A DNA stretch of 64,000 nt, taken from a virus. Where the stretch lies: IMG/VR virus record IMGVR_UViG_3300033141_004211, positions 1 through 64,000 of that record; one strand, written 5' to 3'. Every line of letters starts with the position of its first letter. Within the stretch, counting starts at the first letter, position 1. Position numbers and translations under genes: made by a program. Below the pieces are notes generated by a model. The model saw nothing but the letters and a program-made list of their open reading frames with translations, was not told the origin of the DNA and did not search any database. Positions 15,899 through 36,541 of the stretch are shown here, one piece after another.

Positions 15899-17388
15899 TA
15901 CGCTCCTTCCTCCTCGCCACCTTGCAAGTCTATGAGACCGAGTTTAAGCATCGCTGCTCGCAACGCTGGAGGCTGCAAATTTCTCCAATCAATACCCAGG
16001 GCATCAAGTTGGGCGACAACCTCCGGATAATCAATCTCAAGCGCAGCGGAAACAGGGACACCAGCTTCAAATAGGGGTTTCCACATCAGTTCCATGCGCT
16101 CTTCGCGTGACAAGATCGACGTCTCATCAATCCACTCTACTGTGAGACCACCATACGGCGACCAGGCGTCCCCAAGGATGACCACACTGACGAAATCCTC
16201 GGCAATGATCCTGAGCATATTGCCGACGGCCTGTTTCTGCGCAGCCTTCATCTGTTGGGTCGCTGCCTGGCGACCTTGCCCCTCCATACGGAGCATCTGG
16301 ACACCGCCAGCACCAAAAATCTGCCAAGCGATAACCTCAAGATCCCTGAGAATACCCCATAGCAAATGGAAGCTACCGCCCATACCTATCTCAGAGACAG
16401 CAGCTTGGACGTATGGCAAGACGGGGAGCGTCCCCTTCGCCAAGTCCTCACGAAGCGCAGTCACGATACCGTCGATCTGCTCTGATGTAAGTTGCCTCGC
16501 ATCTCGCGGGACAACCAAGGACACAAGCTTGTCCATCTGAGGCTTACCTACTTTATCCTTCAGGAGAACCAGCATCCCATACAGGATGTCAATGATCGGG
16601 TAGGCTTCCTCAGTGGGAGAGGGCGATGTAAGCCGCCGACCCCGCTCGGTGGTGCCGGTGTACTGTATGAGCACCATCTCGTATGGAGACCAATGCGGTA
16701 CACCAGCAGCCCCGAGCTTCGCTTCGTTGACAGCGAAATTAATGCCACCGAATTTGCTGACATCGTAAAAAGCCGGATCTCGCAACACACCAGATGACGA
16801 AACATTCGTCTTAATCACAGCCGGGTCATGCGCGATAAAGCCGAGGATCGGACCGGGATCCTTAACCGCTTTCACAACTTCAGCCATAAAGGTCTCTCGA
16901 TCAATCTCTCCGCGCACATACCGACCAGCCACTTTATACGCCTGCCCCCTCGGGCTACGGAGGAGCTCTACAGGGACGCGCCCAACAGTCAACCAGTCAC
17001 GCATCATCCCATCAATGGCTACCCGGAAGGTCCTGTCCACAGCGTTCGGGGACGCCAAAACCTTCTCCAGCATCCTCTTGGGCATGTCATCGTCAGCCGG
17101 GTCTTTCTCTTTAACCCGCAATTTATGGGACTCAACCTCACGCAGAATAGTACGAATAATACCAGCAATCAAGGGTAATCTGGACGCCCTGCGTAGCTCA
17201 TCAATGGTATAATCGGTACGACGTAGCTGCCCCATTAGTTGGAGCAGCCTGGCTTGCGTCAGATCCTGCACATCCAGAATCTGACCACGAGGCTCCTGTC
17301 GCTGCTCCAGCGTTGTGGCTTTCTCCTCAACGGAAGGACTTTCCTCAACCCTCTTTCTGAATAGACCCGGTAACAATCTCCCCAACAT
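15898..17388 (-). CDS. Portal protein candidate
   Basis: About 496 aa. I placed the start at ATG 17388, which is preceded by GGAGGtgtccg. Size and position upstream of the protease-scaffold and capsid genes fit a portal. Confidence 0.6.
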   Translation of the reverse strand: MLGRLLPGLFRKRVEESPSVEEKATTLEQRQEPRGQILDVQDLTQARLLQLMGQLRRTDYTIDELRRASRLPLIAGIIRTILREVESHKLRVKEKDPADDDMPKRMLEKVLASPNAVDRTFRVAIDGMMRDWLTVGRVPVELLRSPRGQAYKVAGRYVRGEIDRETFMAEVVKAVKDPGPILGFIAHDPAVIKTNVSSSGVLRDPAFYDVSKFGGINFAVNEAKLGAAGVPHWSPYEMVLIQYTGTTERGRRLTSPSPTEEAYPIIDILYGMLVLLKDKVGKPQMDKLVSLVVPRDARQLTSEQIDGIVTALREDLAKGTLPVLPYVQAAVSEIGMGGSFHLLWGILRDLEVIAWQIFGAGGVQMLRMEGQGRQAATQQMKAAQKQAVGNMLRIIAEDFVSVVILGDAWSPYGGLTVEWIDETSILSREERMELMWKPLFEAGVPVSAALEIDYPEVVAQLDALGIDWRNLQPPALRAAMLKLGLIDLQGGEEEGA

Positions 17389-18025
17389 CGGACACCTCCA
17401 GCGGGCAATCCCGCAAACAGCAATCGTCCCTCCCCACCTTCCTAAATGGCTCGCCAAGGGAGCCGTAAGAGTACACAGGCCCCTTCAACCCCCCGACTGG
17501 AGCCCAAGGGCAGGGGTAAAAACGCCCATCACTCCATATAACCGCCAGTTCCCCGTCACATACGCGACGATGCTTCCTAGAAAAACCGGCCTTCAGAACG
17601 CGCTTCTCAGTCGAGACTACATCAATCTGCAAGGTCACGCGCTCCCAGCCCAGCCGTCTAAGGAAATCAACGTTCACCGGATATGGCACTTCCACCCGGA
17701 TATTGTACCCCAACTCACATAGCACGATAGGACGACGGAACCACGTATACAAACCATAATAGGGACTTGGCTCAAAGACCGCCACGATCTCTTCGCAAGT
17801 AGGAATCTGGTTAACCTTCAGACAAAGAAACCCAGGTCCCCAGAGAGTTGTCCTCATCCTCCACCTACGCCTCAAGGCAAGGATAAAGGGACAAAAGTCC
17901 TCGTGCATCAGCGGTTCTTCAAAATCAAAAGCAATAACATCGTCCTCGGCAAGGGATGCGTTGAGGCCCTCGGCGAAGGCCCGCCAATCCTTGACTGTCT
18001 CATTGAAATTAACCGATACTATCAA
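17345..18025 (-). CDS. Hypothetical protein with SPASM-like Cys segment
   Basis: The likely start is TTG 18025, after GGAAGGAG and in a TTGA overlap with the upstream stop. The C-terminal part reads CDGELAVIWSDGRFYPCPW, which resembles a SPASM/twitch element. There is no CxxxCxxC motif and no Walker motif, so it is not a terminase. Confidence 0.45.
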   Translation of the reverse strand: MIVSVNFNETVKDWRAFAEGLNASLAEDDVIAFDFEEPLMHEDFCPFILALRRRWRMRTTLWGPGFLCLKVNQIPTCEEIVAVFEPSPYYGLYTWFRRPIVLCELGYNIRVEVPYPVNVDFLRRLGWERVTLQIDVVSTEKRVLKAGFSRKHRRVCDGELAVIWSDGRFYPCPWAPVGGLKGPVYSYGSLGEPFRKVGRDDCCLRDCPLEVSDVGEIVTGSIQKEG

Positions 18026-19713
18026 AACAATCTCCTTCCACGAATAGTGCAGGGAATCTTTACCCCAACACCAAGCCACCGATGAGATTGATTATCCAGC
18101 AAGTCTACCGCCAGCTTCAGAAAACCGTTCTCAATCGGCGGCACAGGTACGGGGACCTGTACTGTTAACGTCTCCCCAGGCCCAACGTTCCGAGGAAGGT
18201 CAAACTTCGTCCGCGCAGCGCCGTTGATGACCTCGCCCCGAACACCATCGCACCAAAACGCACCAACAAAATATCTCCCCCGTACCCAGGACTCGTCGGT
18301 GACATTGCGGAGCTGAACCTCAACCATACCAGAGATACCACGAGGGGAAGAAGGCATTGAGGTAACAGCATTATTGGCAGCTCGCCTCCTTTCCGGCTTC
18401 GGGTGGTGCACTCGGCCTTCAGACTTCATACACCGATGCACGAAGTCGACAGGGGAGGGAAGAAGTTCATACTTCCCGACACCGGAGTCGGGGGTCTCGA
18501 AAACACCAACGTAGCCACCAAAGTCAGGGGTGACGGGCAACTTTTTCCACAAAACCGCTGCGTGTCTCGCCCCCAGTGGGCGCAAGGAGAAGGACTCTGG
18601 GAACAAGACAACCAGATCGTGCCTGTTCAACTCGCGAGCATCGAACTTCTTCACACGCCTGAGACCATGCTGGCTGGCATCGTCGAGTTCACCAGAAGGT
18701 GTGAACGCCGTCACCTCGTGTTGGTCGTTCAGCACTTGCAACAGCCCCGCCACATAGGGATCATCAGGGACAGTCTTCCCCTCGAAGAAGACCGCAATCT
18801 TCCTCGGTGGCGTCACAACATGCGACGCCTCATCCTCATCCCAAGGAACACGAGGAAGGGGCAATAGCTCACCGTCATCCCCACGTGGGGTGAGGTCCCA
18901 CACCTTCTTCTCTATCACTCGAGGATGGACACCATCAAAACGCCGCACCGACCCGCCGCCATGCGTCCACTGGGTCGGTTCCCCCCATCGCCAGTGAGAC
19001 CACGTATCCTTGACATTCAATCGGTGACCATCGCGAGATCGGTATAGAGCAAGGCGGGCACGGATGTCCCTGGCATCACCCATCCCGCAGTAGTGATAAC
19101 AGTGGATGATAAAATCACCATTGTCATCCTTAGCCTCAATGATGGGACCCCTTCCACAATCAGCAGGGGGGGCTGCGTGATGGGAGAAAATCATGGGCAG
19201 TCCAGGGCGACGGTAGGCGCGATGCATCAGGACAGACCAGCTACTACCAACAGCCACCAAGTCTGGTCTCCACCAAAAATGGTAGAACGGGTATCGGACG
19301 ATCTTAGCCTCTGGGTGCCTTTTCCAAAAATCCACCAGTGCCTTCAGCTCGTGCGCATGATACAACTCATCAGCGCCAGCCAGCATATAGATCGCAGCCT
19401 CTCCAAGACGCTCCCGGATGATCTGAAAGCCGCGATTTTGCAAATCCTTCTTGTCCTCAACCCAACCGACTTGCTCAAAAACGATCTTGCCACCGCCGCG
19501 CTTCCTTCGTGAAAGCCGCTTAACAATCGAAGCAGAGACATCAGTGCTAAGGCCATCCTGAGTGACACGATCTTTAGGGTATCCACGCACGCATCCCTCG
19601 ACTACAGCAATAGTCTTCACCACATCGCTGGTCATGAAGCTCCCGATGCTATATTCCAGGAACTTCTCAGCGTTGAGGAAGAAGATGCATACACCAACAT
19701 CAAACTCAGCCAT
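18022..19713 (-). CDS. Family 2-like (GT-A) glycosyltransferase with extra C-terminal domain
   Basis: 563 aa. The N-terminus (VGVCIFFLNAEKFLEYSIGS ... YMLAGADELY) is typical of the GT2 fold. Confidence 0.55.
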   Translation of the reverse strand: MAEFDVGVCIFFLNAEKFLEYSIGSFMTSDVVKTIAVVEGCVRGYPKDRVTQDGLSTDVSASIVKRLSRRKRGGGKIVFEQVGWVEDKKDLQNRGFQIIRERLGEAAIYMLAGADELYHAHELKALVDFWKRHPEAKIVRYPFYHFWWRPDLVAVGSSWSVLMHRAYRRPGLPMIFSHHAAPPADCGRGPIIEAKDDNGDFIIHCYHYCGMGDARDIRARLALYRSRDGHRLNVKDTWSHWRWGEPTQWTHGGGSVRRFDGVHPRVIEKKVWDLTPRGDDGELLPLPRVPWDEDEASHVVTPPRKIAVFFEGKTVPDDPYVAGLLQVLNDQHEVTAFTPSGELDDASQHGLRRVKKFDARELNRHDLVVLFPESFSLRPLGARHAAVLWKKLPVTPDFGGYVGVFETPDSGVGKYELLPSPVDFVHRCMKSEGRVHHPKPERRRAANNAVTSMPSSPRGISGMVEVQLRNVTDESWVRGRYFVGAFWCDGVRGEVINGAARTKFDLPRNVGPGETLTVQVPVPVPPIENGFLKLAVDLLDNQSHRWLGVGVKIPCTIRGRRLF

Positions 19714-19922
19714 CAGTCCTCCAACAGCAAAGCGATGTCGTCGTTCATATCATGGGATAGGTCTGCGAGATGGGAGAGCAACAGCACGGTGCCGTGCTCA
19801 TTGCACTTCGTCAAGTCCTCAAGAGACTCAGCACACTTCAGCATCACGTCAATATCATGAAAACACACCTTTAGCCTCTCATGATACTGAATCAACAGAA
19901 TCGCCAATTGCTTATTCGTCAT
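19713..19922 (-). CDS. Hypothetical protein
   Basis: 69-aa ORF coupled to its neighbours by 1-nt overlaps. Confidence 0.4.
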   Translation of the reverse strand: MTNKQLAILLIQYHERLKVCFHDIDVMLKCAESLEDLTKCNEHGTVLLLSHLADLSHDMNDDIALLLED

Positions 19923-20983
19923 CAGTCATCTCCTACCATCAGAGACAAAATGCCTGCCAGCGCTAGCATCATCTGATTCATACCGAAACGGGAGTCCCGT
20001 TTGAATCTCCCGGCAAAATTTTCCTTCAGGCACTTCATGATCTGCGCGGAGAGGTCCTGCCGGTCACCATGCCGTGCGAAATAGACGTACCGCTCGTACT
20101 CACTCCCGTCTACTATCTCGTGAAAAACAGGAAAAGAATAACACACGACCGGTGTGGCACAAGCAAGGGCCTCAATCAGAAACATCCCAAACCCCTCCCA
20201 GATCGAAGCACTTATCAGGCACAAGGACTGCGAGATAATCTCAAACTTCTTCTTATCGGGCACGCCACGATGAAACGTGACATACCCCTGCATATCTCGT
20301 CGCCTGACAAGGGATTCTTCAGCTTTAGCAGTCACTACGTCCAGATGAATACCCAAAGGCTTCACAGCATCAACGACGTGGGGGAATTTTTTGTGCGGTT
20401 CAAGACGAGAGATGAAACAAGCCCGATACTTCCGCTCTGTTGTCGGAAGCGAATCAATAACTCTATCATTCACCGCTGGGTAAACAGTGAATACTCTCTC
20501 CATGGGAATTCCACACCAAGCAGCGCATGGTCTCCGATTGTGCTCAGCTAAGACGAAGACGTAAGCATCAGCATGGCGAATTTGAGCCAGCATCCCGGCC
20601 CAGAAGTTCTCTCTCAAAGCAGGAGAGCGGTCGCCCCGATACTTCGACATCAACGGTAAAACATCCAGGATGCATACCACAGCAGGAACCTCATACCGGA
20701 CACTGAGGCGACAAGCCGCCTCAGCCCCCAACATCGGGAGACCAATGAACAAATCGTGTTGGGGAATATCAGACAGACTCCACAAGGACTTGACGACAAT
20801 CCGCGGCTGACGATAGGCATCGAAATCCATTCTGAAGGGAACAGGGCGGTCTACATAGAGAGTCACATCGTGTCCCAGCTCACCAAGGGCACAGGCAAGC
20901 TGGTAGCAGTAGTAACGTCCCCCGGTGTAATGCCTAACCTGCTGACTCAGTACCGCTATCCTCAATCTCCAGCTTCCCCCCAA
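19922..20983 (-). CDS. GT4-type glycosyltransferase
   Basis: Has an E-x7-E motif (EGFGMFLIEALACATPVV) and an N-terminal RIAVLSQ...GG pattern. Confidence 0.7.
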   Translation of the reverse strand: MGGSWRLRIAVLSQQVRHYTGGRYYCYQLACALGELGHDVTLYVDRPVPFRMDFDAYRQPRIVVKSLWSLSDIPQHDLFIGLPMLGAEAACRLSVRYEVPAVVCILDVLPLMSKYRGDRSPALRENFWAGMLAQIRHADAYVFVLAEHNRRPCAAWCGIPMERVFTVYPAVNDRVIDSLPTTERKYRACFISRLEPHKKFPHVVDAVKPLGIHLDVVTAKAEESLVRRRDMQGYVTFHRGVPDKKKFEIISQSLCLISASIWEGFGMFLIEALACATPVVCYSFPVFHEIVDGSEYERYVYFARHGDRQDLSAQIMKCLKENFAGRFKRDSRFGMNQMMLALAGILSLMVGDD

Positions 20984-21131: not shown

Positions 21132-22172
21132 TCAAAACCAGTCCCCAAGCAAACCAGCGATCCTATCACACATTGACTCAAAACCATACGCCTTCCCTAC
21201 AAAGCGGGCTTGCACACAGAGGTCAGCAAAGGTGTAATCATCCTTCACAAGCTCCATCACCCGCCCAGAGAGCGCAGCGGGGCTAGCCGGGGGTGCATAC
21301 AAGGCAGCATCACCACACACCTCGCGTAGTACGGGATAATCATAGCACACGACCGGGACACCACAATACATCGCTTCCATGAATGGCATACCAAGACCCT
21401 CATAGACCGAGCCACCAATCAAGGCCCTGGCGCGTTTGATAATCTCAAACTTCTTCGCGTCGTCAGGGGCGGAATAAACAGTAACAAACTCAGGCATCAG
21501 GCGTGCAGCTATGCGATCCATCATCGCACTTGCGTCAAAGCTCGTTATCACATCCAGGTATACCCCCGTGTGCTGTACAACGTACAGTAAATCGTTAAAT
21601 CTCTTATGCTCAGTCAACCGGGTGATGGACACAAAACGGTTGTCCCATTCTGTGTAGACAGAATCCGCACAGCGGCTATTAACGCAACCAATTAAGGGGA
21701 CAACATTTTCATTCCCAGTCCACTTCTTGATAAAGGGCACAGCATACTCAGAAATTGAGAGGAGCAAGTCACTCCCAGCAAGGGCGCGGGTGTGACTCTC
21801 CCCAAAGTGCATCCGCTTGGCCACTGCCGGGGCAAATTTGCTTACCAGTGGCCATGCATCAAGAACAAAATTCCAACATGGAACCCCCATCTTCTTGGCA
21901 AAGGCCATCGCCCACTCAGAGGCTAGGATGGGATAGCCAATCACAAGGTCGAATTCATCGTCAGCGACAAGCGCATCAAGCCTACTGGCACGCACCACAA
22001 CCGGCATGGGATACCACTGGCGAAGATCGTCATAGAAAGGCGGTAGCCGCTGCGTGAACATAGTCACATCATGCCCGAGCTCACAGAATCCACAAGCCAC
22101 AAGCCAAGCATGATACCGGCCGCCGCTATACACATCAGCACGAGGGTGTTCAACGATAAAGGCTACTCTCAT
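21132..22172 (-). CDS. GT4-type glycosyltransferase
   Basis: MRVAFIVEH...GG at the N-terminus and an E-x7-E motif (EGLGMPFMEAMYCGVPVV). Confidence 0.7.
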   Translation of the reverse strand: MRVAFIVEHPRADVYSGGRYHAWLVACGFCELGHDVTMFTQRLPPFYDDLRQWYPMPVVVRASRLDALVADDEFDLVIGYPILASEWAMAFAKKMGVPCWNFVLDAWPLVSKFAPAVAKRMHFGESHTRALAGSDLLLSISEYAVPFIKKWTGNENVVPLIGCVNSRCADSVYTEWDNRFVSITRLTEHKRFNDLLYVVQHTGVYLDVITSFDASAMMDRIAARLMPEFVTVYSAPDDAKKFEIIKRARALIGGSVYEGLGMPFMEAMYCGVPVVCYDYPVLREVCGDAALYAPPASPAALSGRVMELVKDDYTFADLCVQARFVGKAYGFESMCDRIAGLLGDWF

Positions 22173-22190: not shown

Positions 22191-22388
22191 CTACACGCTC
22201 CTGGTCATCACAGCACCACACTCGGGGCACTTGCGCTCATTACACGGTTCACCAGTCACGTGCTGCTCAGTATGGCCACACACAGGGCATACACACCACC
22301 CGCCAGGCCCAGCCCCGGCAGCATCACCAGCGTTACGCCCACGCCCTTGCTGACGAGCGACCCACCTCCAAAACCATAATTTTCTCAC
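22191..22388 (-). CDS. Zinc-ribbon protein
   Basis: 65 aa with CPVCGH...CPECG. Confidence 0.5.
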   Translation of the reverse strand: MRKLWFWRWVARQQGRGRNAGDAAGAGPGGWCVCPVCGHTEQHVTGEPCNERKCPECGAVMTRSV

Positions 22389-27588: not shown

Positions 27589-27749
27589 TCCTCACACTCT
27601 CCAGCAACGCAGTAAACATCAATCGTGTCTAGGATGACCACATCCTCCCAGATCGCTACCTGTTGCGCCCTAGCCTCAGCCTCTTCCTCGCTATCAGCAT
27701 CAACAATGACGTACACCTCCGCTTCAAACACCACTTGGTAAGTGTTCAT
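27585..27749 (-). CDS. Small acidic protein
   Basis: 54 aa, from my translation: MNTYQVVFEAEVYVIVDADSEEEAEARAQQ.... It has an ATGA overlap upstream and a TTGA overlap downstream. Confidence 0.4.
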   Translation of the reverse strand: MNTYQVVFEAEVYVIVDADSEEEAEARAQQVAIWEDVVILDTIDVYCVAGECED

Positions 27750-29717: not shown

Positions 29718-30246
29718 GCTCAGCCGGGAAGCTTGCCAGGAGCTTCATTTTGAGCTTATTGGCCCACTCTTCCCAAACCCTATCGGGGAAAATGCTACAG
29801 TGCGAATCCGTCCATATTCTGAACGGATAACGGGGAGCGATGATAAGCACATAGCGAGACGCAACTCGCTTGAACTCAGACAGCAAATAGAACGGCACCG
29901 GTGAGTGCTCAACAGTACGACGAGAGTACACTAAATCGTAGCGGTTATCCGGGACGCTCATCCGGTGCATATCCTCGAGTATGCACTGAAAACCCTTCTC
30001 GCGGACCAAGGCACACTCTGACTCCTGATTCGTCAAACCTACACACCGCTTGACGCCCAGGGATTTAAAGACGACAAGGCCCTCGCCACCAGCGCACCCA
30101 ATGTCCAGGACCGACTCTACGCCGTACATCAGGGACCAGAACTGCCTGATGGCCTCCCGCGTCAATCGGATGTGACCTTCCTTTAGAGCACCAGCAGGTT
30201 TCTGATGCCCCACCCACGAGGCCACAAAGGCATCCAATCTAGACAT
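29647..30246 (-). CDS. Class I SAM-dependent methyltransferase
   Basis: Motif I: VLDIGCAGGEG. Its 3' end overlaps the next ORF, so the downstream start is uncertain. Confidence 0.65.
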   Translation of the reverse strand: MSRLDAFVASWVGHQKPAGALKEGHIRLTREAIRQFWSLMYGVESVLDIGCAGGEGLVVFKSLGVKRCVGLTNQESECALVREKGFQCILEDMHRMSVPDNRYDLVYSRRTVEHSPVPFYLLSEFKRVASRYVLIIAPRYPFRIWTDSHCSIFPDRVWEEWANKLKMKLLASFPAELEKGKEMRMLFEVPPDEALDCRS

Positions 30247-31102
30247 ATCTCTCTACCAATTCTTTAATCCTCAAGGCTCGATGCGTCCAGGTGTGCTTCG
30301 CAAGGGCCTCCTCATATCCTCGCCGAGCTATGGCCTCGCGTTCGTCGTCGTGCATGAGGTAGTACTCTGCCTTCTCCAGCATTTCGACGTCATTACGCCA
30401 CATGATACAGTGCACGCCATCCTTTAACGGGATATGCTTCGAGTAGCTGGTCAGAAGCAAAATCCCGCTACCGACTGTCTCCCACACACGGTAGTTAATA
30501 CCTATCGTGTGTTCAGGCGGACCACGCAAGATTTGATTCCAGCCAATCTTGCCATGCCTCAAAAAGGGTGCCATCTCAGCATGTGATAGCCCCTGCTGCC
30601 ACACTACCTTCCCGGGCAGACGATCCGCCAGTTTCTCCAAACGCGCCAACCGCCCAAATGCCTTAAGGTTCCCACAGAAAACAATATCAAATTCCTTCTC
30701 GGCAGAGGGATAAAAGACATCAGGGTCAAAACCCCTGTCAATGAAGAAAACCCTCTCATGTACCAGACGATACCTCTCTATATCAATCGGCTGAGAAAGC
30801 AACACCATGTCATATCGGGAAGACTTCAATACCCGAAACTGTCGGGTGAGATTCTCAGGCCCACGGCGCCAATCAGGGAGATAAATCCTGAACTTGGCAC
30901 GAAGACCGCCAGCTTTCTCGATCCCAATCGCCGCCTTGCTCCCGCACACAAAGGCGACAGCGACCCTCTCACGCACAACACGACGGAACTCAGGAGCATA
31001 AACAAACTGGAAATCCTCATCAGCCCAAACTCTCGCCAATGCCTTATGCCTGTATTGCACCCGTTCATAACCCTTGGCGTACCTAATGAATCTGATCTTC
31101 AT
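30239..31102 (-). CDS. CgeB-like glycosyltransferase
   Basis: C-terminal pattern INYRVWETVGSGILLLT ... AEYYLMHDDEREAIARRGYEEALAKHTWTHR, typical of the Glyco_trans_1_2/CgeB type. Confidence 0.65.
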   Translation of the reverse strand: MKIRFIRYAKGYERVQYRHKALARVWADEDFQFVYAPEFRRVVRERVAVAFVCGSKAAIGIEKAGGLRAKFRIYLPDWRRGPENLTRQFRVLKSSRYDMVLLSQPIDIERYRLVHERVFFIDRGFDPDVFYPSAEKEFDIVFCGNLKAFGRLARLEKLADRLPGKVVWQQGLSHAEMAPFLRHGKIGWNQILRGPPEHTIGINYRVWETVGSGILLLTSYSKHIPLKDGVHCIMWRNDVEMLEKAEYYLMHDDEREAIARRGYEEALAKHTWTHRALRIKELVERYV

Positions 31103-31739
31103 CCTTGAATGTCCACACTAGCCGACCAAGGCTCTGCAAGGGCTTCTCGACAGGAAGCTCACGCATCATCCAATCAACCCCAGCCCGAACCTCCGGGCAC
31201 CTCGGGTGGAAATAATCATCAAAAACGATGACACCGCCAGGAACCAAAAAGGGGAACCATAGCTCAATGTCAAGGCGACAATCAGGATGCCAACCGTCAA
31301 TGAACAACAGACGGATGGGGCTCTCCCACCACTTCGCAGCCTCCTCGGAGGTCATCACCAGCGGGTGGACGTAATCGTCATACCCCAGCCTCCTCACGTT
31401 CGCCAAGAAGGTGGGGTAGCTATCAATCCTGTCCACACCCGCTTGCTCCAAGTAGAGCTTCCCGCCAGTATGCGGGTCAACACACCAAACACGTTCCCTT
31501 TTGGCATCTCGCGACCCAGCAGCGAGGAAACAGGCAGAGCGACCGAAACCCGAGCCAATCTCTACTATGGCACCCTGACCAGGCCCGTACCGAGCCATGA
31601 GGTACAGGGTCGTGCCTGCGACCTCTGGCACGCCAAGGCCGGGGATTTCGCTGACAATCCTGTGAGCAAGAACATGCACACACTTAGGTAACTCACCACG
31701 TCGCTGGCGAGCGATCATCTCATGCATTGAGCAAATCAA
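31083..31739 (-). CDS. SAM-dependent O-methyltransferase (Methyltransf_24-like)
   Basis: IVEIGSGFGRSACFLA ... LLFIDGWH. Confidence 0.65.
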   Translation of the reverse strand: MICSMHEMIARQRRGELPKCVHVLAHRIVSEIPGLGVPEVAGTTLYLMARYGPGQGAIVEIGSGFGRSACFLAAGSRDAKRERVWCVDPHTGGKLYLEQAGVDRIDSYPTFLANVRRLGYDDYVHPLVMTSEEAAKWWESPIRLLFIDGWHPDCRLDIELWFPFLVPGGVIVFDDYFHPRCPEVRAGVDWMMRELPVEKPLQSLGRLVWTFKDEDQIH

Positions 31740-32748
31740 GAACCCTTACACCACTGACAATGTTGTCAGCGGTGATGAACTTCAGAGCTCCACGCGCTAA
31801 CCCAGCACCGCGCGAACGATTCGTCGCCATGACCGTCATCCGCCTAGTCAGGGCATCAATATTATTGACCGGATACAGCATCCCGGTGCGACCGGGGAAA
31901 ACTATCTCAGGATTCCCACCAGGCCATATCTCTCCATATTTGGAGAAGAAGCCATCTGAGGCAATAACTGGCACACCGAGAGCCATCGCCTCCCTGATGA
32001 CACGAGAGCAACCTTCCCAGAGAGAAGACTGCACCAGGCAATCAAACCCACGAAGAAGCCCCCACATCTTCGTGGGATCTTCAACAAGGCCAGTAAGCAC
32101 AATGCGCTCGTCGTTATCTATAAGTTTCTCTAACTCACCTCTTTCAGGACCATCACCGACAATCACCAGCCGGCAGTGATCCATGTCAAGCTTCTTAAAT
32201 GCACAGACAGCCTGACCAACTAGCTTGCGACGAATCAAACGGGCTACAACCCCAAAGGTGAAAGTATCGTCAGGGAACAATCGTATAGGCTCAATGCCAG
32301 CGGGGGGGGCAACAGGTATCCGACAGACGACAAAACTCCAAGAGGGGACACCCTGCCCAACAAAATAATTACGCACTGCTTCTGTCTCACACCAATATGA
32401 ATCCACATGGAGATATACCGGTGTGACGTAATCATCCCCGAAGCCACCGACAAAGGCAAAGATAGGCCCACCAGCTTCGTTGATTCTATCAGCCAGGGTT
32501 GCCTGCTGCCCCAGCAGCTTGGTGCCATATAGAAAGATAGCACGCGACCGGCGGCACGTCTTCCTCAAATCGTGAACGTCAATAAGGCGCACATCACACT
32601 CACGAGCCCTGGCGGTAATCTGATCCTCTCCACCGCTGCCAATATGCAACCATACATCCACACCGCGTTCGTACAACCACTCTGCCAAGGAAAGGCAGAT
32701 TATCTCTGACCCACCAATCTGCCGCCCACCGCTTATTACTCCGATCAC
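31720..32748 (-). CDS. GT4-type glycosyltransferase
   Basis: MIGVISGGRQIGGSE at the N-terminus and an E-x7-E motif (EGCSRVIREAMALGVPVI). Confidence 0.7.
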   Translation of the reverse strand: MIGVISGGRQIGGSEIICLSLAEWLYERGVDVWLHIGSGGEDQITARARECDVRLIDVHDLRKTCRRSRAIFLYGTKLLGQQATLADRINEAGGPIFAFVGGFGDDYVTPVYLHVDSYWCETEAVRNYFVGQGVPSWSFVVCRIPVAPPAGIEPIRLFPDDTFTFGVVARLIRRKLVGQAVCAFKKLDMDHCRLVIVGDGPERGELEKLIDNDERIVLTGLVEDPTKMWGLLRGFDCLVQSSLWEGCSRVIREAMALGVPVIASDGFFSKYGEIWPGGNPEIVFPGRTGMLYPVNNIDALTRRMTVMATNRSRGAGLARGALKFITADNIVSGVRVLDLLNA

Positions 32749-33722
32749 CTCACGCCTCCCAAGAATCTCTCATATCGCTTTGCAACACCGATAACATCAA
32801 CATACCTTCGCCACCAATCCCTGACGGCGAGTTGCCAGTGTTGCGTGTTCTCGACAACATCACACACAGCACCAAAAAGACTAGCGGTCTCTATCTGATA
32901 GAACTTCCCGCCACACTCAGCATTCGGGAAGGAACGAGAACCAGTACGCACGAACCTCACCTGCCGACCACCATAACCAGCCACCTCCGCCGCCCCGCCG
33001 ACATTGGGGACTATAACTGGCGCGCCCTCACCAAGAGCCTCGCACACCGTATTCGGAGAGAAATCTCCAACGACTAGATGAACAAGAGCAATGGCCCCCT
33101 GACCATACCAGCGCGAGTTCTTCTTAAAGCCTAACCACTTCCAACCCGGAAGAGCATACTTTGCCTTCGTCTCACGGGCATAATCACCGAGCAACCACAA
33201 TTCAAGGTTTGGGTAGCGCGATCTGACTTGATCCCATATCTGGGCCATGGCCCAGATACTATATGCCCGGTTGAGACCGCGTTTGAACCCCACGTTACCT
33301 ATCTGGGCATTGCGTATTAGCAAATAGGGGACATCACTCTCGCGCCGACCAATCCACGTTGAGCCATTGCGGATTACTGCCCGTCGCGGTGGTAATCGCC
33401 ATGTTTTACCCAGAAGACGTTTGGTCTTCAGGTGATTCTTCAACCACTCTGCCACGAAGATGGCGCCATCGGCAACCTTCAGCAGCCGCCAAGTAGCCTC
33501 AGCATTCTCGTGGTGGAAACCACCAACCCTGGCGACGATCTTCTTGCCAGTCCGTCGCCGTTGCTCAAGCTTCTTCCAGTCCCGCGTGAAACTCTGCCAA
33601 TAGATGATGTGCGTCGCCGCGCCTTCACTACCGACGAAAAGGGATGGTCTGGCTTTTCTCAACAACTCATACTGCCGCCGGGCACCAACCCCGGTGCCAG
33701 AGAGATCAACGAGGACCTTCAT
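32745..33722 (-). CDS. GT1/GT4-like glycosyltransferase
   Basis: C-terminal SPNTVCEALGEGAPVIVPNVGGAAEV. Confidence 0.55.
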   Translation of the reverse strand: MKVLVDLSGTGVGARRQYELLRKARPSLFVGSEGAATHIIYWQSFTRDWKKLEQRRRTGKKIVARVGGFHHENAEATWRLLKVADGAIFVAEWLKNHLKTKRLLGKTWRLPPRRAVIRNGSTWIGRRESDVPYLLIRNAQIGNVGFKRGLNRAYSIWAMAQIWDQVRSRYPNLELWLLGDYARETKAKYALPGWKWLGFKKNSRWYGQGAIALVHLVVGDFSPNTVCEALGEGAPVIVPNVGGAAEVAGYGGRQVRFVRTGSRSFPNAECGGKFYQIETASLFGAVCDVVENTQHWQLAVRDWWRRYVDVIGVAKRYERFLGGVR

Positions 33723-33807: not shown

Positions 33808-34416
33808 TTAACTATTCCAACCCCACGCACTCTCACCCAAATCCCTGAGCAACCGTGCTGGCACGCCAGCAACTCTCGTGTAAGGCTCAACGTCCTTCGT
33901 GACAACAGCGCCAGCCCCAATTATAGCTCCCTTACCAATGGTAACACCAGGCAGGATCACAGCACCACTACCGATCACAGCCTCAGCACAGATTACAACG
34001 CGATTTTCATCACACAGGGTCCAGGGAACCAATCGGACCGCCTTCGGGAACCGCTCATTGCAGAACATTACCCCATGCCCAATAAAAACGCGAGGCCCAA
34101 CGATTACCCCCTCACAAACAAAGGTGTGTGACTTCACCTTCGATTGCGGGCCAATCTCAACCCCACGCTCAATGAGCACATAAGGACCAATATCCGAACC
34201 ACGACGCAACACGACATCCCTATAAAGGATGGTATGAGCGCGAACATGCACGCCCTCTTCTATGACACATCCCGACTGGACCACACTAAACAGTCCGACC
34301 TCGACACCGGACATTAAGGTAACATTCTGCTCAATGATACTATACTTGCTGATCCTTATATCGCTTGTATTCTCCCCCGCCTCCCGCCTACCAGTAGACA
34401 TCAAACAATCCAACAC
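33808..34416 (-). CDS. Left-handed beta-helix (hexapeptide) sugar acyltransferase
   Basis: Hexapeptide repeats: ICAEAVIGSGAVILPGVTIGKGAIIGAGAVVTKDV. I placed the start at GTG 34416, 8 nt after AGGAGG and just past the radical SAM stop. Confidence 0.7.
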   Translation of the reverse strand: MLDCLMSTGRREAGENTSDIRISKYSIIEQNVTLMSGVEVGLFSVVQSGCVIEEGVHVRAHTILYRDVVLRRGSDIGPYVLIERGVEIGPQSKVKSHTFVCEGVIVGPRVFIGHGVMFCNERFPKAVRLVPWTLCDENRVVICAEAVIGSGAVILPGVTIGKGAIIGAGAVVTKDVEPYTRVAGVPARLLRDLGESAWGWNS

Positions 34417-34417
34417 C

Positions 34418-35476
34418 TCAACACCTCCTACAGAGAGCGGGAAGCACGCCCTCGTCCCCATCAGTGCTCTGATACAGAGAGAGGTCGTGTCTCAAATCTT
34501 GAAAGGGTTTCGCTAGCCAAATGCCATGCAAGCTATTCGTCTCCAGGGACCCCATAACAGGTCCTTGGTCTATCGCGTAGCAGCAAATCGTAACCCTCCC
34601 ATCCCACCAGACACTAGCACGCTGCCAGGGTTTTCTACAAGAAAAGCGCCGCTTATCAGCGTGGTCCCACCCCGGATGTTTCTCAGCATCAATCTGACCG
34701 CCGAACCGTTCAACATTCTTGCAAAAGACACGACCGCCGGGGAGCCCAGGGATGGGCCTATACTTCGTGAGCGACCTGATACGGGAGCTTTCAGCGTACT
34801 TGCGGACGAATGGAAGCCACTCTTCCTCGTTATCCTTTAGTCGCAAAATCTGAATCCAAATCTGTGGCACCTTCTGTTGGCGCGCTACCCTCTGTCGAGC
34901 CAACTTCAATAACATGTCCACATTTGCCTGAACCTTCTCAAACTTGGCTCCAACGCGGATAGACTCATAGACAGCCTTGCTCACTCCATCCAGGCTAATG
35001 ATAAGCCTGTGAAGCTCGGAGCCAAGAATAGCCTCAATCAAAGGCTGAGTAAGGGGAACCGCGTTTGTAGACACAGCTATGCTACCAACACCAGCCTTAG
35101 CCAGGGCGTTCACCCACTGCACGAACTTGGGATGCAACAGCGACTCACCACCAAGATGCATCCACACCCATCGGATAGTATTAGGCTGCTGAACATTCCA
35201 ATGACTAATTTCTTTAGTCAATTGACTAAAAACCTTGTCCGACATATACCCAACTGGTCGACTATAATCAGGATCCCCACGCGGGCACATGATACACCGA
35301 CAGGGGCAAGCATTCGTGAGCTCGATGTCCAGTGCCAGGGGCATTGCCCGAACACAGGGTGTACCACACTCGGGGCACTCTTCGACATCCCTCGCATGAC
35401 CACTCCTGGCACGTACACGAAAAGCCCCATGAGTCAGACATTCATAGAGGTTGAATTCAAAGTGTTCTTTCTTCAT
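34418..35476 (-). CDS. Radical SAM enzyme with SPASM-like C-terminus
   Basis: CxxxCxxC in LTNACPCRCIMCP. The C-terminus is Cys-rich (CRKPWQRASVWWDGRVTICCY). An N-terminal zinc-ribbon is also present. Confidence 0.75.
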   Translation of the reverse strand: MKKEHFEFNLYECLTHGAFRVRARSGHARDVEECPECGTPCVRAMPLALDIELTNACPCRCIMCPRGDPDYSRPVGYMSDKVFSQLTKEISHWNVQQPNTIRWVWMHLGGESLLHPKFVQWVNALAKAGVGSIAVSTNAVPLTQPLIEAILGSELHRLIISLDGVSKAVYESIRVGAKFEKVQANVDMLLKLARQRVARQQKVPQIWIQILRLKDNEEEWLPFVRKYAESSRIRSLTKYRPIPGLPGGRVFCKNVERFGGQIDAEKHPGWDHADKRRFSCRKPWQRASVWWDGRVTICCYAIDQGPVMGSLETNSLHGIWLAKPFQDLRHDLSLYQSTDGDEGVLPALCRRC

Positions 35477-35662
35477 CTTCTCAAAGTCAGACCTGGTTTT
35501 CCAAACTATGCCAAAGTGACGATAGCTTGGACGGGTGTCCTTTCAGCACCCACTTTTGACGCTTCAACGAGAGCAGCGCTCAAAATCTCTATCGTGGACA
35601 GTGCCACAATCACAAACCTCAGGGGATAGCAACAAAAACGTCACGATGCACAGTCATAACCT

Positions 35663-36541
35663 CTAATCAGACATCAGCCTCGTAACTCGTTCGATCAACC
35701 TGGGACCAGCGACAGACTCCTCACCAGTCCTGACACATTCGATGAAATCATGCAGGGCCACAGTAAGTGGTGGTGGTTCATACACAACATTGGGAGAAGC
35801 AATCTTGCCATCCTCCCCGTGAGTGATCTCCCAGAGCTTCCTCGTCACATCGTCAATGATAATAGTCCTGGTGTCACCGACGAGCTCAATGTGACGGGAT
35901 TTCATGGGGTGGTGCCAACTCATAAAGGCAGAAGCAAAAGCATCGCCGATCACAAGATGCGCCGCAGCATAACCACGCACACGCCTCACTGACTCAACGC
36001 AGACGTTCTGTTTGAACAGGTGACACAACACCGAGAGAGGATGCGGACCAACCGACCACCATACGTCAACGTCACTTCTCACGATCCCCCAATTGGTCCA
36101 GTCAAGACGTGCGAACTCAAGGCTAAAATCGGTCTCCTCTATAAGCCCCTTAGCAAACTTCACCAAGGGGTTGTGCACGAAAACGTAGTCACAAACAAGG
36201 GTCCCCCCAACAGCAGCGTTAAGCAGCCTCTCCATATCTGGGATGGTCATCGCTGGCGGTTTCTCCACAAAAACAGCCTTCCCACGCCGCAATGCCGCAA
36301 CAGCTTGCTCAACATGGAGCGCAGGCGGAGATGCGATCACCACCGCATCAATCCTATCAGCTAGCAGGTACTCAAAAGTGCTGTGAGTCTTCACAGCACC
36401 ATTTAGCATAGCTGCTGCCCGCTGACGAGCCCCGGGATCAGGGTCAGCCACAGCCTCAACAGCGACCCCAACTATATCACGCAAGGTGCGCACAATATTG
36501 CCACCCCAATACCCACACCCTGAAATTCCTATTCTCAGCAT
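35663..36541 (-). CDS. Gfo/Idh/MocA-family sugar oxidoreductase
   Basis: Rossmann opening: MLRIGISGCGYWGGNIVRTL. Confidence 0.7.
   Translation of the reverse strand: MLRIGISGCGYWGGNIVRTLRDIVGVAVEAVADPDPGARQRAAAMLNGAVKTHSTFEYLLADRIDAVVIASPPALHVEQAVAALRRGKAVFVEKPPAMTIPDMERLLNAAVGGTLVCDYVFVHNPLVKFAKGLIEETDFSLEFARLDWTNWGIVRSDVDVWWSVGPHPLSVLCHLFKQNVCVESVRRVRGYAAAHLVIGDAFASAFMSWHHPMKSRHIELVGDTRTIIIDDVTRKLWEITHGEDGKIASPNVVYEPPPLTVALHDFIECVRTGEESVAGPRLIERVTRLMSD

What the first reader, a model, noticed from the sequence alone, without database searches (positions are those of the whole stretch)
17345..36541. About 19 kb glycan-tailoring island between the portal and the replication genes, with no export machinery
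The island contains the following genes:
- Eight glycosyltransferase-like genes: one GT2, three GT4 with E-x7-E motifs, one GT9, one CgeB-like and two other GT-B-like.
- Three SAM methyltransferases.
- An SDR epimerase/dehydratase and a cupin.
- A hexapeptide acyltransferase.
- A Gfo/Idh/MocA oxidoreductase.
- A radical SAM/SPASM enzyme.
- An alkaline phosphatase-family enzyme.

I found no Wzx, Wzy, ABC exporter, initiating phosphoglycosyl transferase or other polytopic membrane protein. The only membrane protein is a 56-aa one.

That points to cytoplasmic glycosylation of proteins, most likely virion proteins, or of another soluble acceptor. Classical O-antigen or capsule conversion seems less likely. 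The size and enzyme diversity are unusual for a phage. An HNH endonuclease and zinc-ribbon genes are embedded in the island, which indicates mosaic assembly.
Basis: partly seen in the sequence, partly recalled or inferred. Interest (0 to 1): 0.7.

Follow-up and report, generated by a model that had tools for sequence, protein, structure and literature searches.

The report
Conserved glycan-building module in a phage
About a fifth of this uncultivated tailed phage's genome is a conserved block of soluble sugar-modifying and sugar-transferring enzymes with no export machinery, so it probably builds a decorated glycan inside the infected cell, most plausibly on the phage particle itself, but the acceptor remains unproven.

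Summary
Window 17345-36541 carries 27 tightly packed minus-strand ORFs. I verified:
- eight glycosyltransferase-like genes: 3 GT4 with E-x7-E, GT9, a CgeB-like gene, two divergent GT-B, and one GT-A shown only by fold;
- three SAM methyltransferases, an SDR plus a CapF/WbjC-type cupin, a NeuD/PglD-type acetyltransferase, a Gfo/Idh/MocA dehydrogenase, a radical-SAM/SPASM enzyme and an NPP-type alkaline-phosphatase-family enzyme.

The island has no Wzx/Wzy/ABC/PGT or other polytopic membrane protein. Neither do the islands of about ten related metagenomic phages.

New points:
- The island is not a mosaic. It is a vertically inherited core module of an uncultivated siphovirus-like clade. Its genes are as conserved as the portal and its GC equals the rest of the window. 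Only the HNH and small ORFs are insertions.
- A ninth GT sits inside the head-gene operon in every relative.
- No ThyS or TET-type base hydroxylase was found, which argues against DNA glycosylation.

Best reading (about 0.45): cytoplasmic assembly of a methylated hetero-oligosaccharide on virion proteins, as in Che8-type actinophages, chloroviruses or the Bacillus spore crust. The main rival is a host lipid-linked glycan exported by host machinery.

Verdict: a new variant of a known kind, of moderate interest.

The parts
17345..18031 (-). Conserved ~213-225-aa protein just upstream of the portal. Function unknown. Its Cys-rich C-terminus carries a Cx15..Gx4C pattern.
   Evidence: Present next to the portal in L002, L005, L064, L065 and L072 at 29-49% identity. 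No Pfam, PHROG or PDB hit. The single-sequence AF2 model is unusable (pLDDT 36). The hhalign match to the SPASM start is not significant.
18022..19713 (-). 563-aa three-domain protein: an N-terminal GT-A-fold glycosyltransferase domain, a middle alpha/beta domain and a C-terminal beta-sandwich.
   Evidence: AF2 with a 15-sequence MSA gives pLDDT 83. Foldseek hits GT-A enzymes in PDB and BFVD. The family is found only in this phage clade: 16 hits at 39-90% identity.
19922..20983 (-). GT4 glycosyltransferase (E-x7-E at residue 263).
   Evidence: Pfam Glycos_transf_1 at 1.6e-17. Motif. 48-65% identity in relatives.
21132..22172 (-). GT4 glycosyltransferase, a tandem paralogue of the previous gene (E-x7-E at residue 258).
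   Evidence: Pfam 7e-16. phmmer between the two paralogues gives 1e-45. The GT4-GT4-GT-A triad is kept even in the most distant relatives, L068-L071.
22191..22849 (-). Zn-ribbon ORF (22191-22388) and HNH endonuclease (22385-22849). These are mobile insertions, not pathway genes.
   Evidence: Pfam HNH at 20.5 bits, marginal. The HNH has no counterpart in any relative. The Zn-ribbon ORF is matched only in L065, at another position.
22871..23371 (-). Conserved 166-aa protein of unknown function.
   Evidence: 37-45% identity in L002, L005, L064 and L065. No family hit.
23317..23487 (-). 56-aa ORF with two hydrophobic helices. It is the only membrane-type ORF in the island.
   Evidence: Kyte-Doolittle scan. 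Relatives carry analogous 50-63-aa two-helix ORFs but no polytopic protein.
23487..23954 (-). 155-aa protein of unknown function, conserved in close relatives.
   Evidence: 36-37% identity in L005 and L065. No family hit.
23888..24814 (-). GT9-family (heptosyltransferase-like) glycosyltransferase with a Cys-rich C-terminus.
   Evidence: Pfam PF01075 at 8.3e-10. NCBIfam heptosyltransferase models match, far below their cutoffs. PDB 3TOV, a GT9. About 52% identity in L005, L065 and L067.
24811..25380 (-). 189-aa protein of unknown function, weakly conserved.
   Evidence: 29-33% identity in L005, L065 and L067. No family hit.
25430..25801 (-). Cupin resembling the C-terminal domain of CapF/WbjC/WbcJ (nucleotide-sugar 3-epimerase type).
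   Evidence: Pfam PF14667 at 1.7e-21. NCBIfam NF047837 matches positions 256-362 of 372.
25776..26681 (-). Extended SDR, an NDP-sugar epimerase/dehydratase/reductase.
   Evidence: Pfam Epimerase at 1.6e-28. PDB best hits are UDP-Glc 4-epimerase, dTDP-Glc 4,6-dehydratases and UDP-GlcA decarboxylase. GxxGxxG and YxxxK present.
26671..27588 (-). Divergent GT-B-like protein (305 aa).
   Evidence: No direct family hit. 113 homologues in the 1.8-billion representative library. Of 50 scanned, 10 match Glyco_trans_1_4, 7 match Glyco_trans_1_2 and 6 match Glycos_transf_1. 49% identity in L064.
27746..28648 (-). Class I SAM methyltransferase with an extra N-terminal domain.
   Evidence: Pfam Methyltransf_23/25/11. 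54% identity in L064.
28641..29717 (-). Alkaline-phosphatase-superfamily enzyme of NPP/phosphodiesterase type. It is soluble, and its true start is probably Met16.
   Evidence: Pfam PF01663 at 4.4e-23. Catalytic motifs DG, PTSP, DxxGH and DHG. 59% identity in L064. No PDB sequence match.
29647..30246 (-). Class I SAM methyltransferase.
   Evidence: Pfam Methyltransf_11 at 1.7e-10. 53% identity in L064.
30239..31102 (-). CgeB-like glycosyltransferase (Glyco_trans_1_2).
   Evidence: Pfam PF13524 at 1.5e-19. 48% identity in L064.
31083..31739 (-). Methyltransf_24-family SAM methyltransferase.
   Evidence: Pfam PF13578 at 1.8e-23. Homologues in L008 and L064.
31720..32748 (-). GT4 glycosyltransferase (E-x7-E at residue 245).
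   Evidence: Pfam Glycos_transf_1 at 5.9e-21. 44% identity in L064.
32745..33722 (-). GT-B-like glycosyltransferase (325 aa).
   Evidence: Pfam Glyco_trans_1_4 at 29.8 bits against a cutoff of 27. 67-68% identity in L007 and L008.
33808..34461 (-). Left-handed beta-helix sugar N-acetyltransferase (NeuD/PglB/VioB type).
   Evidence: Pfam Hexapep at 1.6e-21. NCBIfam TIGR03570 at 1.2e-26.
34418..35476 (-). Radical SAM/SPASM enzyme with an N-terminal zinc ribbon.
   Evidence: Pfam Radical_SAM plus SPASM. CX3CX2C at residue 57. Best NCBIfam is 'spiro-SPASM', far below its cutoff. 50-51% identity in L007 and L008.
35663..36541 (-). Gfo/Idh/MocA NAD-dependent sugar dehydrogenase (UDP-GlcNAc 3-dehydrogenase-like).
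   Evidence: Pfam PF01408 at 4.3e-18. NCBIfam NF040723 at 74 bits, below its cutoff. 60-62% identity in L007 and L008.
9747..10922 (-).
   Evidence: phrog_7162 'glycosyltransferase' at 2.2e-33. Pfam PF13524 at 25.5 bits. 59-65% identity and the same position in L002, L005, L065 and L072.
15215..15355 (-). Two consensus sigma-70-type promoters followed by a strong intrinsic terminator hairpin, just upstream of the protease/scaffold gene. This is a putative late-operon checkpoint that separates the island and portal from the head-tail genes.
   Evidence: The same arrangement is found in L002 and L005.
15898..17457 (-). Portal protein, the downstream boundary of the island. The real start is probably near 17391.
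   Evidence: 13 homologues of 490-506 aa. Position upstream of the S78 protease-scaffold gene 12946-15192 and the major head protein 11739-12944.
36541..37887 (-). SbcD/Mre11-type exonuclease, the upstream boundary of the island.
   Evidence: phrog_284 at 2.2e-39. Homologues lie next to the Gfo/rSAM genes in L007 and L008.

Best explanation
The island is an ancestral core module of an uncultivated clade of tape-measure-bearing (siphovirus-like) tailed phages whose contigs run about 80-100 kb. It works entirely in the host cytoplasm.

Step 1 (inferred from family membership). Host nucleotide sugars are re-tailored.
- A Gfo/Idh/MocA dehydrogenase and a NeuD/PglD-type acetyltransferase make an acetamido sugar. 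Relatives, but not this phage, add a DegT aminotransferase.
- An SDR plus a CapF-type cupin make an epimerised or deoxy sugar.
- A radical-SAM/SPASM enzyme adds a further, unknown redox step.

Step 2 (inferred). Eight soluble glycosyltransferases (one GT-A, seven GT-B) build a hetero-oligosaccharide.

Step 3 (inferred). Three SAM methyltransferases and an NPP-type phosphodiesterase-family enzyme decorate the glycan.

Step 4 (hypothesis). The acceptor is a soluble phage protein, most likely a virion component. The ninth glycosyltransferase, encoded among the head genes, acts on the assembling particle. The result would be a glycan coat on the virion, with no membrane carrier or export step.
For: **Shown**
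- All enzyme families are present.
- No PGT, flippase, polymerase, ABC transporter or any polytopic membrane protein is present. This holds in the island, in the rest of the window except an unrelated 4-TM QueT-like ORF at 58747-59223, and in the islands of the relatives L002/L067, L005, L007, L008, L064 and L065.
- The module is conserved and syntenic. Its genes are 33-68% identical across relatives whose portals are 36-60% identical. GC is the same as the rest of the window. That indicates long purifying selection in the phage itself.
- It occupies about 19 kb of a 100-kb contig.
- Every relative whose head module could be read keeps a GT between the head and connector genes.
- No thymidylate-synthase-like or TET/5mYOX enzyme was found.

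**Precedents**
- Che8 and related actinophages carry glycans on capsid proteins (Freeman 2023, as cited in PMC11256854).
- PBCV-1 has eight mostly soluble GTs plus methyltransferases that build and O-methylate the capsid glycan (PMC9614988).
- Streptomyces phage Zuko has a distant homologue of the head-module GT next to a UDP-glucose dehydrogenase, just upstream of terminase and portal.
Against: - There is no direct evidence on the acceptor.
- None of the GTs resembles a characterised protein O- or N-glycosyltransferase. The GT9 gene gave no match to the autotransporter heptosyltransferase TibC. The GT4 and GT-A genes have essentially no homologues in isolated phages, Che8 included.
- GT4 and GT9 enzymes typically act on lipid-linked acceptors as peripheral membrane proteins without TM helices. 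The lack of TM segments therefore does not prove a soluble acceptor.
- The island and portal lie upstream of the putative late promoter/terminator checkpoint, so the island is not obviously co-regulated with the capsid genes.
- About 36 kb of the source contig could not be retrieved.
Confidence: 0.45

Rival explanations
1. Host envelope glycan remodelling. The soluble GTs act at the inner face of the membrane on a host lipid-linked intermediate, such as an Und-PP-linked O-antigen, S-layer glycan, teichoic-type or EPS unit. The host's own initiating transferase, flippase or ABC transporter and ligase then export the altered glycan. This would change the cell surface during infection, for superinfection exclusion or to stop progeny being trapped on debris.
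For: - GT4, GT9, Methyltransf_24, NeuD-type acetyltransferase and CapF-type enzymes are the standard content of bacterial surface-polysaccharide clusters. The best NCBIfam matches are EPS, teichuronic and LPS enzymes, all below cutoff.
- Such GTs usually lack TM helices.
- The comparable cyanophage clusters are interpreted this way in the literature (PMC12801897).
- A relative encodes a pectate-lyase-like beta-helix protein, which hints at a polysaccharide receptor.
Against: - None of about ten relatives has acquired a PGT, flippase, polymerase or transporter.
- No integrase was found among the window proteins scanned, so nothing marks this as a lysogenic-conversion locus.
- Keeping about 20% of a phage genome at structural-gene conservation levels is not typical of conversion morons.
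- One GT sits inside the head operon.
- Wzy and ligase specificity would have to tolerate a heavily re-tailored unit.
Confidence: 0.25
2. DNA hypermodification. The GTs attach mono- to oligosaccharides to a hydroxylated base (5hmC, 5hmU or 5hoC) in phage DNA to evade restriction, as in T4, RB69 and the metavirome BGCs described by Pyle et al.
For: - Phage GT-A and GT-B enzymes related to LPS and teichoic-acid enzymes, including heptose transfer, do glycosylate DNA. Such clusters can sit next to structural genes and carry epimerases and secondary GTs (bioRxiv 10.1101/2023.12.21.572611; PMC13326640).
- The island lies between an exonuclease and the portal.
Against: - No thymidylate-synthase homologue, dCMP/dUMP hydroxymethylase, 5mC methyltransferase or TET/5mYOX dioxygenase was found in any window protein scanned, nor in the precomputed annotation of relatives.
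- Known DNA pathways use 1-3 GTs, not 8-9 plus three methyltransferases.
- The unretrieved 36 kb of the contig leaves this open.
Confidence: 0.1
3. Another soluble product. This could be a glycosylated small molecule or peptide (for example a glycocin-like RiPP matured by the radical-SAM/SPASM enzyme), or a free intracellular oligosaccharide used in host takeover.
For: - SPASM enzymes are often peptide maturases.
- The GT-A model also resembles the S-glycosyltransferases SunS and ThuS, as it does any GT-A.
- Several small ORFs lie in the island.
Against: - The small ORFs (54-69 aa) are not conserved in relatives, so there is no candidate precursor peptide.
- The enzyme set is that of sugar tailoring, not RiPP biosynthesis: there is no protease, transporter or leader-binding domain.
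- The SunS/ThuS resemblance is generic to the GT-A fold.
Confidence: 0.07

Closest known systems
Virion glycosylation loci of actinophages (Che8 and Rita of mycobacteriophage cluster F1; Freeman et al. 2023, as cited in PMC11256854)
   Same: Phage-encoded soluble glycosyltransferases with no export genes. In those phages the glycans are attached to capsid proteins in the cytoplasm.
   Different: - The actinophage loci are small. The Che8 relative Maravista is described with two or 'multiple' putative GT genes near the right genome end (PMC11256854).
- Here there are 8+1 GTs plus about 9 tailoring enzymes over 19 kb, next to the portal.
- No sequence homology was detected.
- Glycosylation of these virions is untested.
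Chlorovirus PBCV-1 and Mimivirus capsid/fibril glycosylation machinery (PMC9614988)
   Same: - A virus-encoded, mostly soluble set of about 8 GTs.
- It includes sugar-nucleotide tailoring enzymes and SAM methyltransferases that O-methylate terminal sugars.
- It works independently of the membrane secretory route and acts on the major capsid protein or fibrils.
   Different: - Those are eukaryotic giant viruses with genomes well above 300 kb, and their genes are largely dispersed.
- Here the module is compact and sits in a phage contig of only about 80-100 kb.
- No orthology is shown.
Cell-wall synthesis/modification (LPS-like) gene clusters of large T4-like cyanophages (S-SCSM2R, S-SCSM1, P-SSM2; PMC12801897)
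   Same: Many GTs (up to 13) and NDP-sugar epimerases in one phage genome, with function untested.
   Different: - Those are myoviruses above 200 kb. Their sets include membrane or export-related genes (PgaA) and Kdo genes, and they are interpreted as modifying the host surface.
- Here there are no export genes, the phage lineage is different, and the block is contiguous next to the portal.
Phage DNA glycan hypermodification BGCs (T4 a/b-GT; RB69/DLP3 arabinosylation; the MT/5mYOX/GT clusters of Pyle et al.)
   Same: Soluble phage GT-A and GT-B enzymes derived from LPS and teichoic-acid enzymes, sometimes with epimerases and a second GT, sometimes near structural genes.
   Different: Those are defined by an enzyme that creates the hydroxylated base (a ThyS homologue or 5mYOX). 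None was found here, and the number of GTs and methyltransferases here is far larger.
Bacillus subtilis spore-crust glycosylation (sps and cge operons: SpsA, CgeB and others; from my own knowledge, not tested here)
   Same: Glycans are built in a cytoplasm (the mother cell) and deposited on a proteinaceous particle without lipid carrier export. The namesakes of two families recur here: CgeB (Pfam PF13524) and SpsA (fold hits).
   Different: That is a cellular developmental system. The resemblance is at family and fold level only, and the acceptors are unrelated.
Bacterial O-antigen, capsule and EPS biosynthesis clusters
   Same: Same enzyme families: GT4, GT9, SDR, CapF-type cupin, WbpB-like dehydrogenase, WbpD/PglD-like acetyltransferase, methyltransferases.
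   Different: The defining membrane steps are missing: initiating PGT, Wzx/Wzy or ABC transporter, chain-length regulator and ligase.

Membership tests
Wzx/Wzy- or ABC-transporter-dependent surface polysaccharide locus | Initiating phosphoglycosyl transferase (WecA/WbaP/PglC type) | tested here: not met
   No PF00953 or PF02397 hit in any island protein. No hydrophobic N-terminal or re-entrant helix in the unannotated ORFs.
Wzx/Wzy- or ABC-transporter-dependent surface polysaccharide locus | Flippase plus polymerase, or ABC exporter (polytopic membrane proteins) | tested here: not met
   The island has no ORF with two or more predicted TM segments except the 56-aa ORF. The same holds in L002, L005, L007, L008, L064 and L065.
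Wzx/Wzy- or ABC-transporter-dependent surface polysaccharide locus | Nucleotide-sugar tailoring enzymes plus several GTs | tested here: met
Phage virion-protein glycosylation locus (Che8 type) | Phage-encoded soluble GTs without export genes | tested here: met
Phage virion-protein glycosylation locus (Che8 type) | Glycan covalently attached to capsid or tail proteins | not testable with these tools
   This needs virions and mass spectrometry. The phage is known only from metagenomes.
Phage virion-protein glycosylation locus (Che8 type) | Sequence homology to the actinophage GTs | tested here: not met
   tblastn of the GT-A and GT4 proteins against 50,697 phage records gives no actinophage hit. 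Only the head-module GT has 23-29% identity matches, in Streptomyces and Arthrobacter phages.
Phage DNA glycosyl-hypermodification BGC | Enzyme creating a hydroxylated pyrimidine (ThyS homologue / dCMP-dUMP hydroxymethylase, or 5mC methyltransferase plus TET/5mYOX) | tested here: not met
   None among the window proteins scanned with Pfam, nor in the precomputed Pfam of relatives' loci. About 36 kb of the contig was not seen.
Phage DNA glycosyl-hypermodification BGC | GT acting on DNA | not testable with these tools
   This requires nucleoside LC-MS or an in vitro assay.
CAZy GT2 (for ORF 18022-19713) | Sequence membership of the family (Pfam Glycos_transf_2 or similar) | tested here: not met
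   No Pfam, NCBIfam or PDB sequence hit.
CAZy GT2 (for ORF 18022-19713) | GT-A fold with an acidic DxD-type motif | tested here: met
   Foldseek probability 1.0 to SpsA, WrtF, TarS and heparosan synthase. Invariant G112, D114 and E115 after a beta-strand.
Autotransporter heptosyltransferase (BAHT: TibC/AAH) protein O-glycosyltransferases (for ORF 23888-24814) | Closer to TibC/AAH than to LPS heptosyltransferases | tested here: not met
   The PDB search returns only the GT9 entry 3TOV and no TibC chain at E<=1. The Cys-rich C-terminus remains an untested lead.
CapF/WbjC bifunctional reductase-epimerase (for ORFs 25776-26681 plus 25430-25801) | SDR domain followed by a cupin domain | tested here: inconclusive
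   The two domains are encoded as adjacent separate genes. The cupin matches the WbcJ C-terminal region at 59 bits against a 500-bit cutoff. The SDR matches that model only weakly.

The most novel reading that the evidence does not exclude
This clade of bacterial viruses devotes about a fifth of its genome to a self-contained cytoplasmic protein-glycosylation system. Nine GTs, tailored rare sugars, methylation and possibly phosphodiester decoration would coat the virion with a complex glycan. That would be a giant-virus-style 'glycocalyx' in a phage contig of about 80-100 kb, far more elaborate than the few-gene loci of actinophages. It may use new protein-glycosylating GTs, such as the clade-specific GT-A/beta-sandwich protein next to the portal and the head-operon GT.
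Probability: 0.35. Interest if true: 0.8.

Novelty: new variant of a known kind. Interest (0 to 1): 0.55.

Why it matters
If the glycan ends up on the virion, this would be the most elaborate phage-encoded particle-glycosylation system yet seen. It would extend a phenomenon known from a few actinophages and from giant eukaryotic viruses to an uncultivated environmental phage lineage. It would also offer:
- a compact set of soluble enzymes for cytoplasmic glycoengineering;
- candidates for new protein glycosyltransferase families;
- a way to ask what a glycan coat does for a phage (shielding from defences or grazers, adhesion to polysaccharide matrices, stability).

If the target is instead the host envelope, the module shows that a phage can carry a full glycan-tailoring programme while relying completely on host export. 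Either way, the conserved GT4-GT4-GT-A triad next to the portal is a useful marker for finding the clade.

Tried and rejected
- **Retrieving the rest of the 100,391-bp source contig.** Exact-protein look-ups for end-proximal genes failed. Exact DNA patterns from both window ends were absent from viral contigs and metagenome contigs. Only short fragments of the same phage were found (L001, L006).
- **Relatives among isolated phages or IMG/VR.** Megablast of the island found none. tblastn of the portal and the GT-A protein against 50,697 phage records found none. Portal and GT-A-alignment scans of viral contigs found none.
- **The idea that the 563-aa protein next to the portal might be the missing large terminase.** Rejected by the GT-A fold. 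No terminase was identified in the window.
- **Structure of the conserved 213-aa protein.** The single-sequence AF2 model is unusable (pLDDT 36). The profile search against PDB and the profile-sequence comparison to the SPASM enzyme were not significant.
- **TibC-like protein heptosyltransferase idea for the GT9 gene.** No support.
- **PDB sequence search for the AP-family enzyme.** No hit.
- **NCBIfam naming.** All island enzymes fall far below the curated cutoffs, so no sugar identity can be assigned.
- **Host identification.**
  - TnpB homologues are closest in one Thermotogota-labelled MAG (70%) and several Chloroflexota MAGs (59-67%). This is only a weak hint. The flanks of these TnpB homologue loci (L009 and the others) show no homology to the phage's other genes beyond one weak short match.
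  - Run and sample accessions were not found in the literature library.
- **Other scans.** PADLOC gave no defence-system assignment for the GT4 genes. Rfam and tRNA scans were empty.

Full report
**1. Context**

The 64-kb window is transcribed almost wholly from the minus strand (GC skew uniformly negative). It is a tailed-phage genome segment. In order of transcription it carries:
- early and replication genes (64 -> 44 kb): an MT-A70 methylase, a DNA ligase, a Pol-beta-like protein and DUF5131;
- a TnpB;
- a holin-containing segment;
- an SbcD-type exonuclease (36541-37887);
- the island (36541 -> 17345);
- the portal (15898-17457);
- an S78 protease-scaffold fusion (12946-15192);
- the major head protein (11739-12944);
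- connector genes;
- a 1299-aa tape measure (1956-5855).

There are no tRNAs or Rfam hits. The window's proteins occur on a 100,391-bp JGI contig. I could not retrieve that contig.

**2.

27 ORFs fill 98% of 17345-36541.

Two calls needed more than a family scan.
- The 563-aa 'GT2' has no sequence-family hit. A confident AF2 model (pLDDT 83) shows an N-terminal GT-A fold (hits to SpsA, WrtF, TarS, heparosan synthase and many viral GT-A proteins), then an alpha/beta domain and a C-terminal beta-sandwich.
- The 305-aa ORF is GT-B-like only through its homologues.

The two adjacent GT4 genes are tandem paralogues (1e-45).

A hydropathy scan finds only the 56-aa two-helix ORF as a membrane protein in the island. 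No initiating transferase, flippase, polymerase or ABC exporter was seen in the island or elsewhere in the window. The single polytopic protein in the window is a 4-TM QueT-like ORF in the early region, unrelated to glycan export.

**3.

*(a) The island is a conserved core module, not a mosaic.*
- Portal, exonuclease and GT-A homologues identify about ten related metagenomic phages from independent samples. These are NCBI SDBS01/SDBV01, ENA ERZ23486227, four Logan runs and several JGI metagenomes.
- Close relatives keep the order GT9 ... GT4 - GT4 - GT-A(560 aa) - 213 aa - portal at one end. At the other end, L007 and L008 keep exonuclease - Gfo/Idh/MocA - rSAM/SPASM - LbH homologue - 325-aa GT, with extra genes inserted in L007.
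- The most distant relative read, L064 (portal 36% identical), carries nearly the whole set, rearranged and without a GT9: SDR, GT4, MT24, AP-family, CgeB-like, two MTs, the 305-aa GT-B, cupin, GT4, GT4, GT-A, DegT, LbH.
- Island proteins in L064 are 33-59% identical, against 36% for the portal and 39% for the scaffold.
- Island GC equals the rest of the window.
- The GT4-GT4-GT-A triad persists down to 31% identity.
- Only the HNH, the small ORFs (54-69 aa) and the LAGLIDADG gene outside the island lack counterparts. The Zn-ribbon ORF has one, at another position in L065. Relatives carry other homing endonucleases at other positions.
- Variable extras in relatives are a DegT aminotransferase (L007, L064), APS kinase (L065), a GT-A of the Glyco_transf_7C type (L008) and an FtsH-like protease (L007).

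*(b) A ninth GT lies outside the island.* It sits at 9747-10922 (phrog_7162 at 2e-33), inside the head-gene block between the 245-aa protein next to the major head protein and the connector genes. It is kept at 59-65% identity in the same place in L002, L005 and L065, and a 390-aa GT-like gene sits at that position in L072.

*(c) Transcription architecture.* Consensus TTGACA-17-TATAAT promoters are followed within tens of bases by a strong terminator hairpin, directly upstream of the protease/scaffold gene. This occurs in the window, in L002 and in L005, and looks like a lambda PR'-tR'-style late checkpoint. The island and the portal lie upstream of it. No comparably strong promoter or terminator was found between about 41.3 kb and 15.25 kb. 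These are pattern matches only.

**4. Mechanism**

The island has no sugar-1-phosphate nucleotidyltransferase, so host NDP-sugars must be the starting point.
- Gfo/Idh/MocA (best match UDP-GlcNAc 3-dehydrogenase) plus a NeuD/PglD-type acetyltransferase is the classic frame for an acetamido-sugar branch. Relatives add the DegT aminotransferase; this phage lacks it.
- The SDR plus CapF/WbjC-type cupin suggest a 4-keto epimerisation/reduction branch.
- All NCBIfam scores are far below equivalog cutoffs, so the sugars cannot be named.
- The NPP-type enzyme has intact catalytic motifs and no signal peptide. Its role is open: phosphodiester decoration or nucleotide turnover.

Eight GTs and three methyltransferases imply a decorated hetero-oligosaccharide.

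The acceptor is the open question. I favour virion proteins at about 0.45, for four reasons:
- clade-wide conservation at structural-gene levels;
- complete and persistent absence of membrane steps;
- the GT embedded in the head operon;
- precedents in actinophages (PMC11256854, citing Freeman 2023), in PBCV-1 and Mimivirus (PMC9614988), and the Zuko arrangement.

**5. Rivals**

- *Host lipid-linked glycan exported by host machinery (0.25).* The enzyme families are those of surface-polysaccharide loci, and peripheral GTs need no TM helices. Cyanophage clusters are read this way (PMC12801897).
- *DNA glycan hypermodification (0.10).* This is a real, recently expanded phenomenon. Its defining base-hydroxylating enzyme was not found in the window or in relatives' loci, and the GT count is far too high.
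- *Glycosylated peptide or small molecule (0.07).* There is no conserved precursor ORF.

**6. Comparison and novelty**

The module works like known virus-encoded cytoplasmic glycosylation systems, but it is not a sequence member of any of them. It fails the defining membrane steps of O-antigen and capsule loci, and it lacks the defining base-modifying step of DNA-glycosylation BGCs.

Large GT complements exist in cyanomyoviruses above 200 kb. So 'unusual for a phage' is true mainly for the compact, portal-adjacent, clade-conserved form in a contig of about 80-100 kb. I rate it a new variant of a known kind, with interest about 0.55. If virion glycosylation is shown, the interest would be about 0.8.

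**7. Limits**

- The acceptor was not determined.
- The host is unknown. TnpB neighbours hint at Chloroflexota or Thermotogota.
- 36 kb of the contig was not seen.
- Promoter and terminator calls are consensus matches.
- The terminase was not located.

Noticed in passing
window 56140-59879 (minus strand): A set of type IV CRISPR-Cas effector genes sits in the phage's early region: Csf1/Cas8-like 59220-59879 (7e-25), Cas11 58329-58814 (9e-10), Csf2/Cas7 57395-58336 (7e-57) and Csf3/Cas5 56140-56937 (5e-41). An HTH protein (56922-57398) lies among them. No CRISPR array, Cas6/Csf5 or DinG was found in the window.
   Followed up: partly
window 58747-59223 (minus strand): A 158-aa ORF with four predicted TM helices carries a precomputed QueT-family label. 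It is wedged between Csf1 and Cas11 and is the only polytopic membrane protein in the window.
   Followed up: no
window 15215-15355; L002 13365-13977; L005 12099-12195: Consensus sigma-70 promoter(s) are followed almost at once by a strong intrinsic terminator, just upstream of the protease/scaffold gene. The arrangement is conserved in three phages. It resembles a lambda PR'-tR' antitermination-controlled late operon.
   Followed up: partly
window 42981-44231 (minus strand), promoter 44383-44355, repeat 44566-44613: A TnpB (IS605 OrfB/Cas12f-like) gene follows a perfect TG-extended consensus promoter, and a perfect 2 x 24-nt tandem repeat lies upstream. The nearest homologues are in one Thermotogota-labelled MAG (70%) and several Chloroflexota MAGs (59-67%). 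This is the only host hint.
   Followed up: partly
window 38012-39211 and 22385-22849: Free-standing homing-endonuclease-type genes (LAGLIDADG; HNH) are absent from relatives. Relatives carry other endonucleases (RRXRR-HNH in L064, DUF559/MTES_1575 in L065) at different sites. The LAGLIDADG protein shares weak similarity with the neighbouring exonuclease (1e-7).
   Followed up: partly
L065 1-590; L007 15026-16789 and 21274-21347; L064 11925-13085; L008 18690-19466: Relatives add other chemistry to the same module: an APS kinase (possible sulfation), an FtsH-like AAA+/M41 protease, DegT aminotransferases and a Glyco_transf_7C GT-A. The clade seems to diversify its glycan.
   Followed up: no
whole window: No large terminase was recognised anywhere in the 64 kb. 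The position upstream of the portal, where terminases usually sit, is occupied by the glycan module.
   Followed up: partly
window 40762-41175 and 41260-41288: A holin (Holin_LLH) gene is preceded by a near-consensus promoter. It lies between the early genes and the exonuclease/glycan module rather than after the tail genes.
   Followed up: no
window 49870-49995 and 50938-51474: Two 63-nt tandem repeat copies (89% identical) lie inside a plus-strand ORF region. A 178-aa DNA polymerase beta-like (palm plus thumb) nucleotidyltransferase is nearby.
   Followed up: no
L007 1-1265: A relative encodes a pectate-lyase-like beta-helix protein (Pel9A-like / Beta_helix), possibly a depolymerase tailspike. 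That would suggest a polysaccharide receptor on the host.
   Followed up: no
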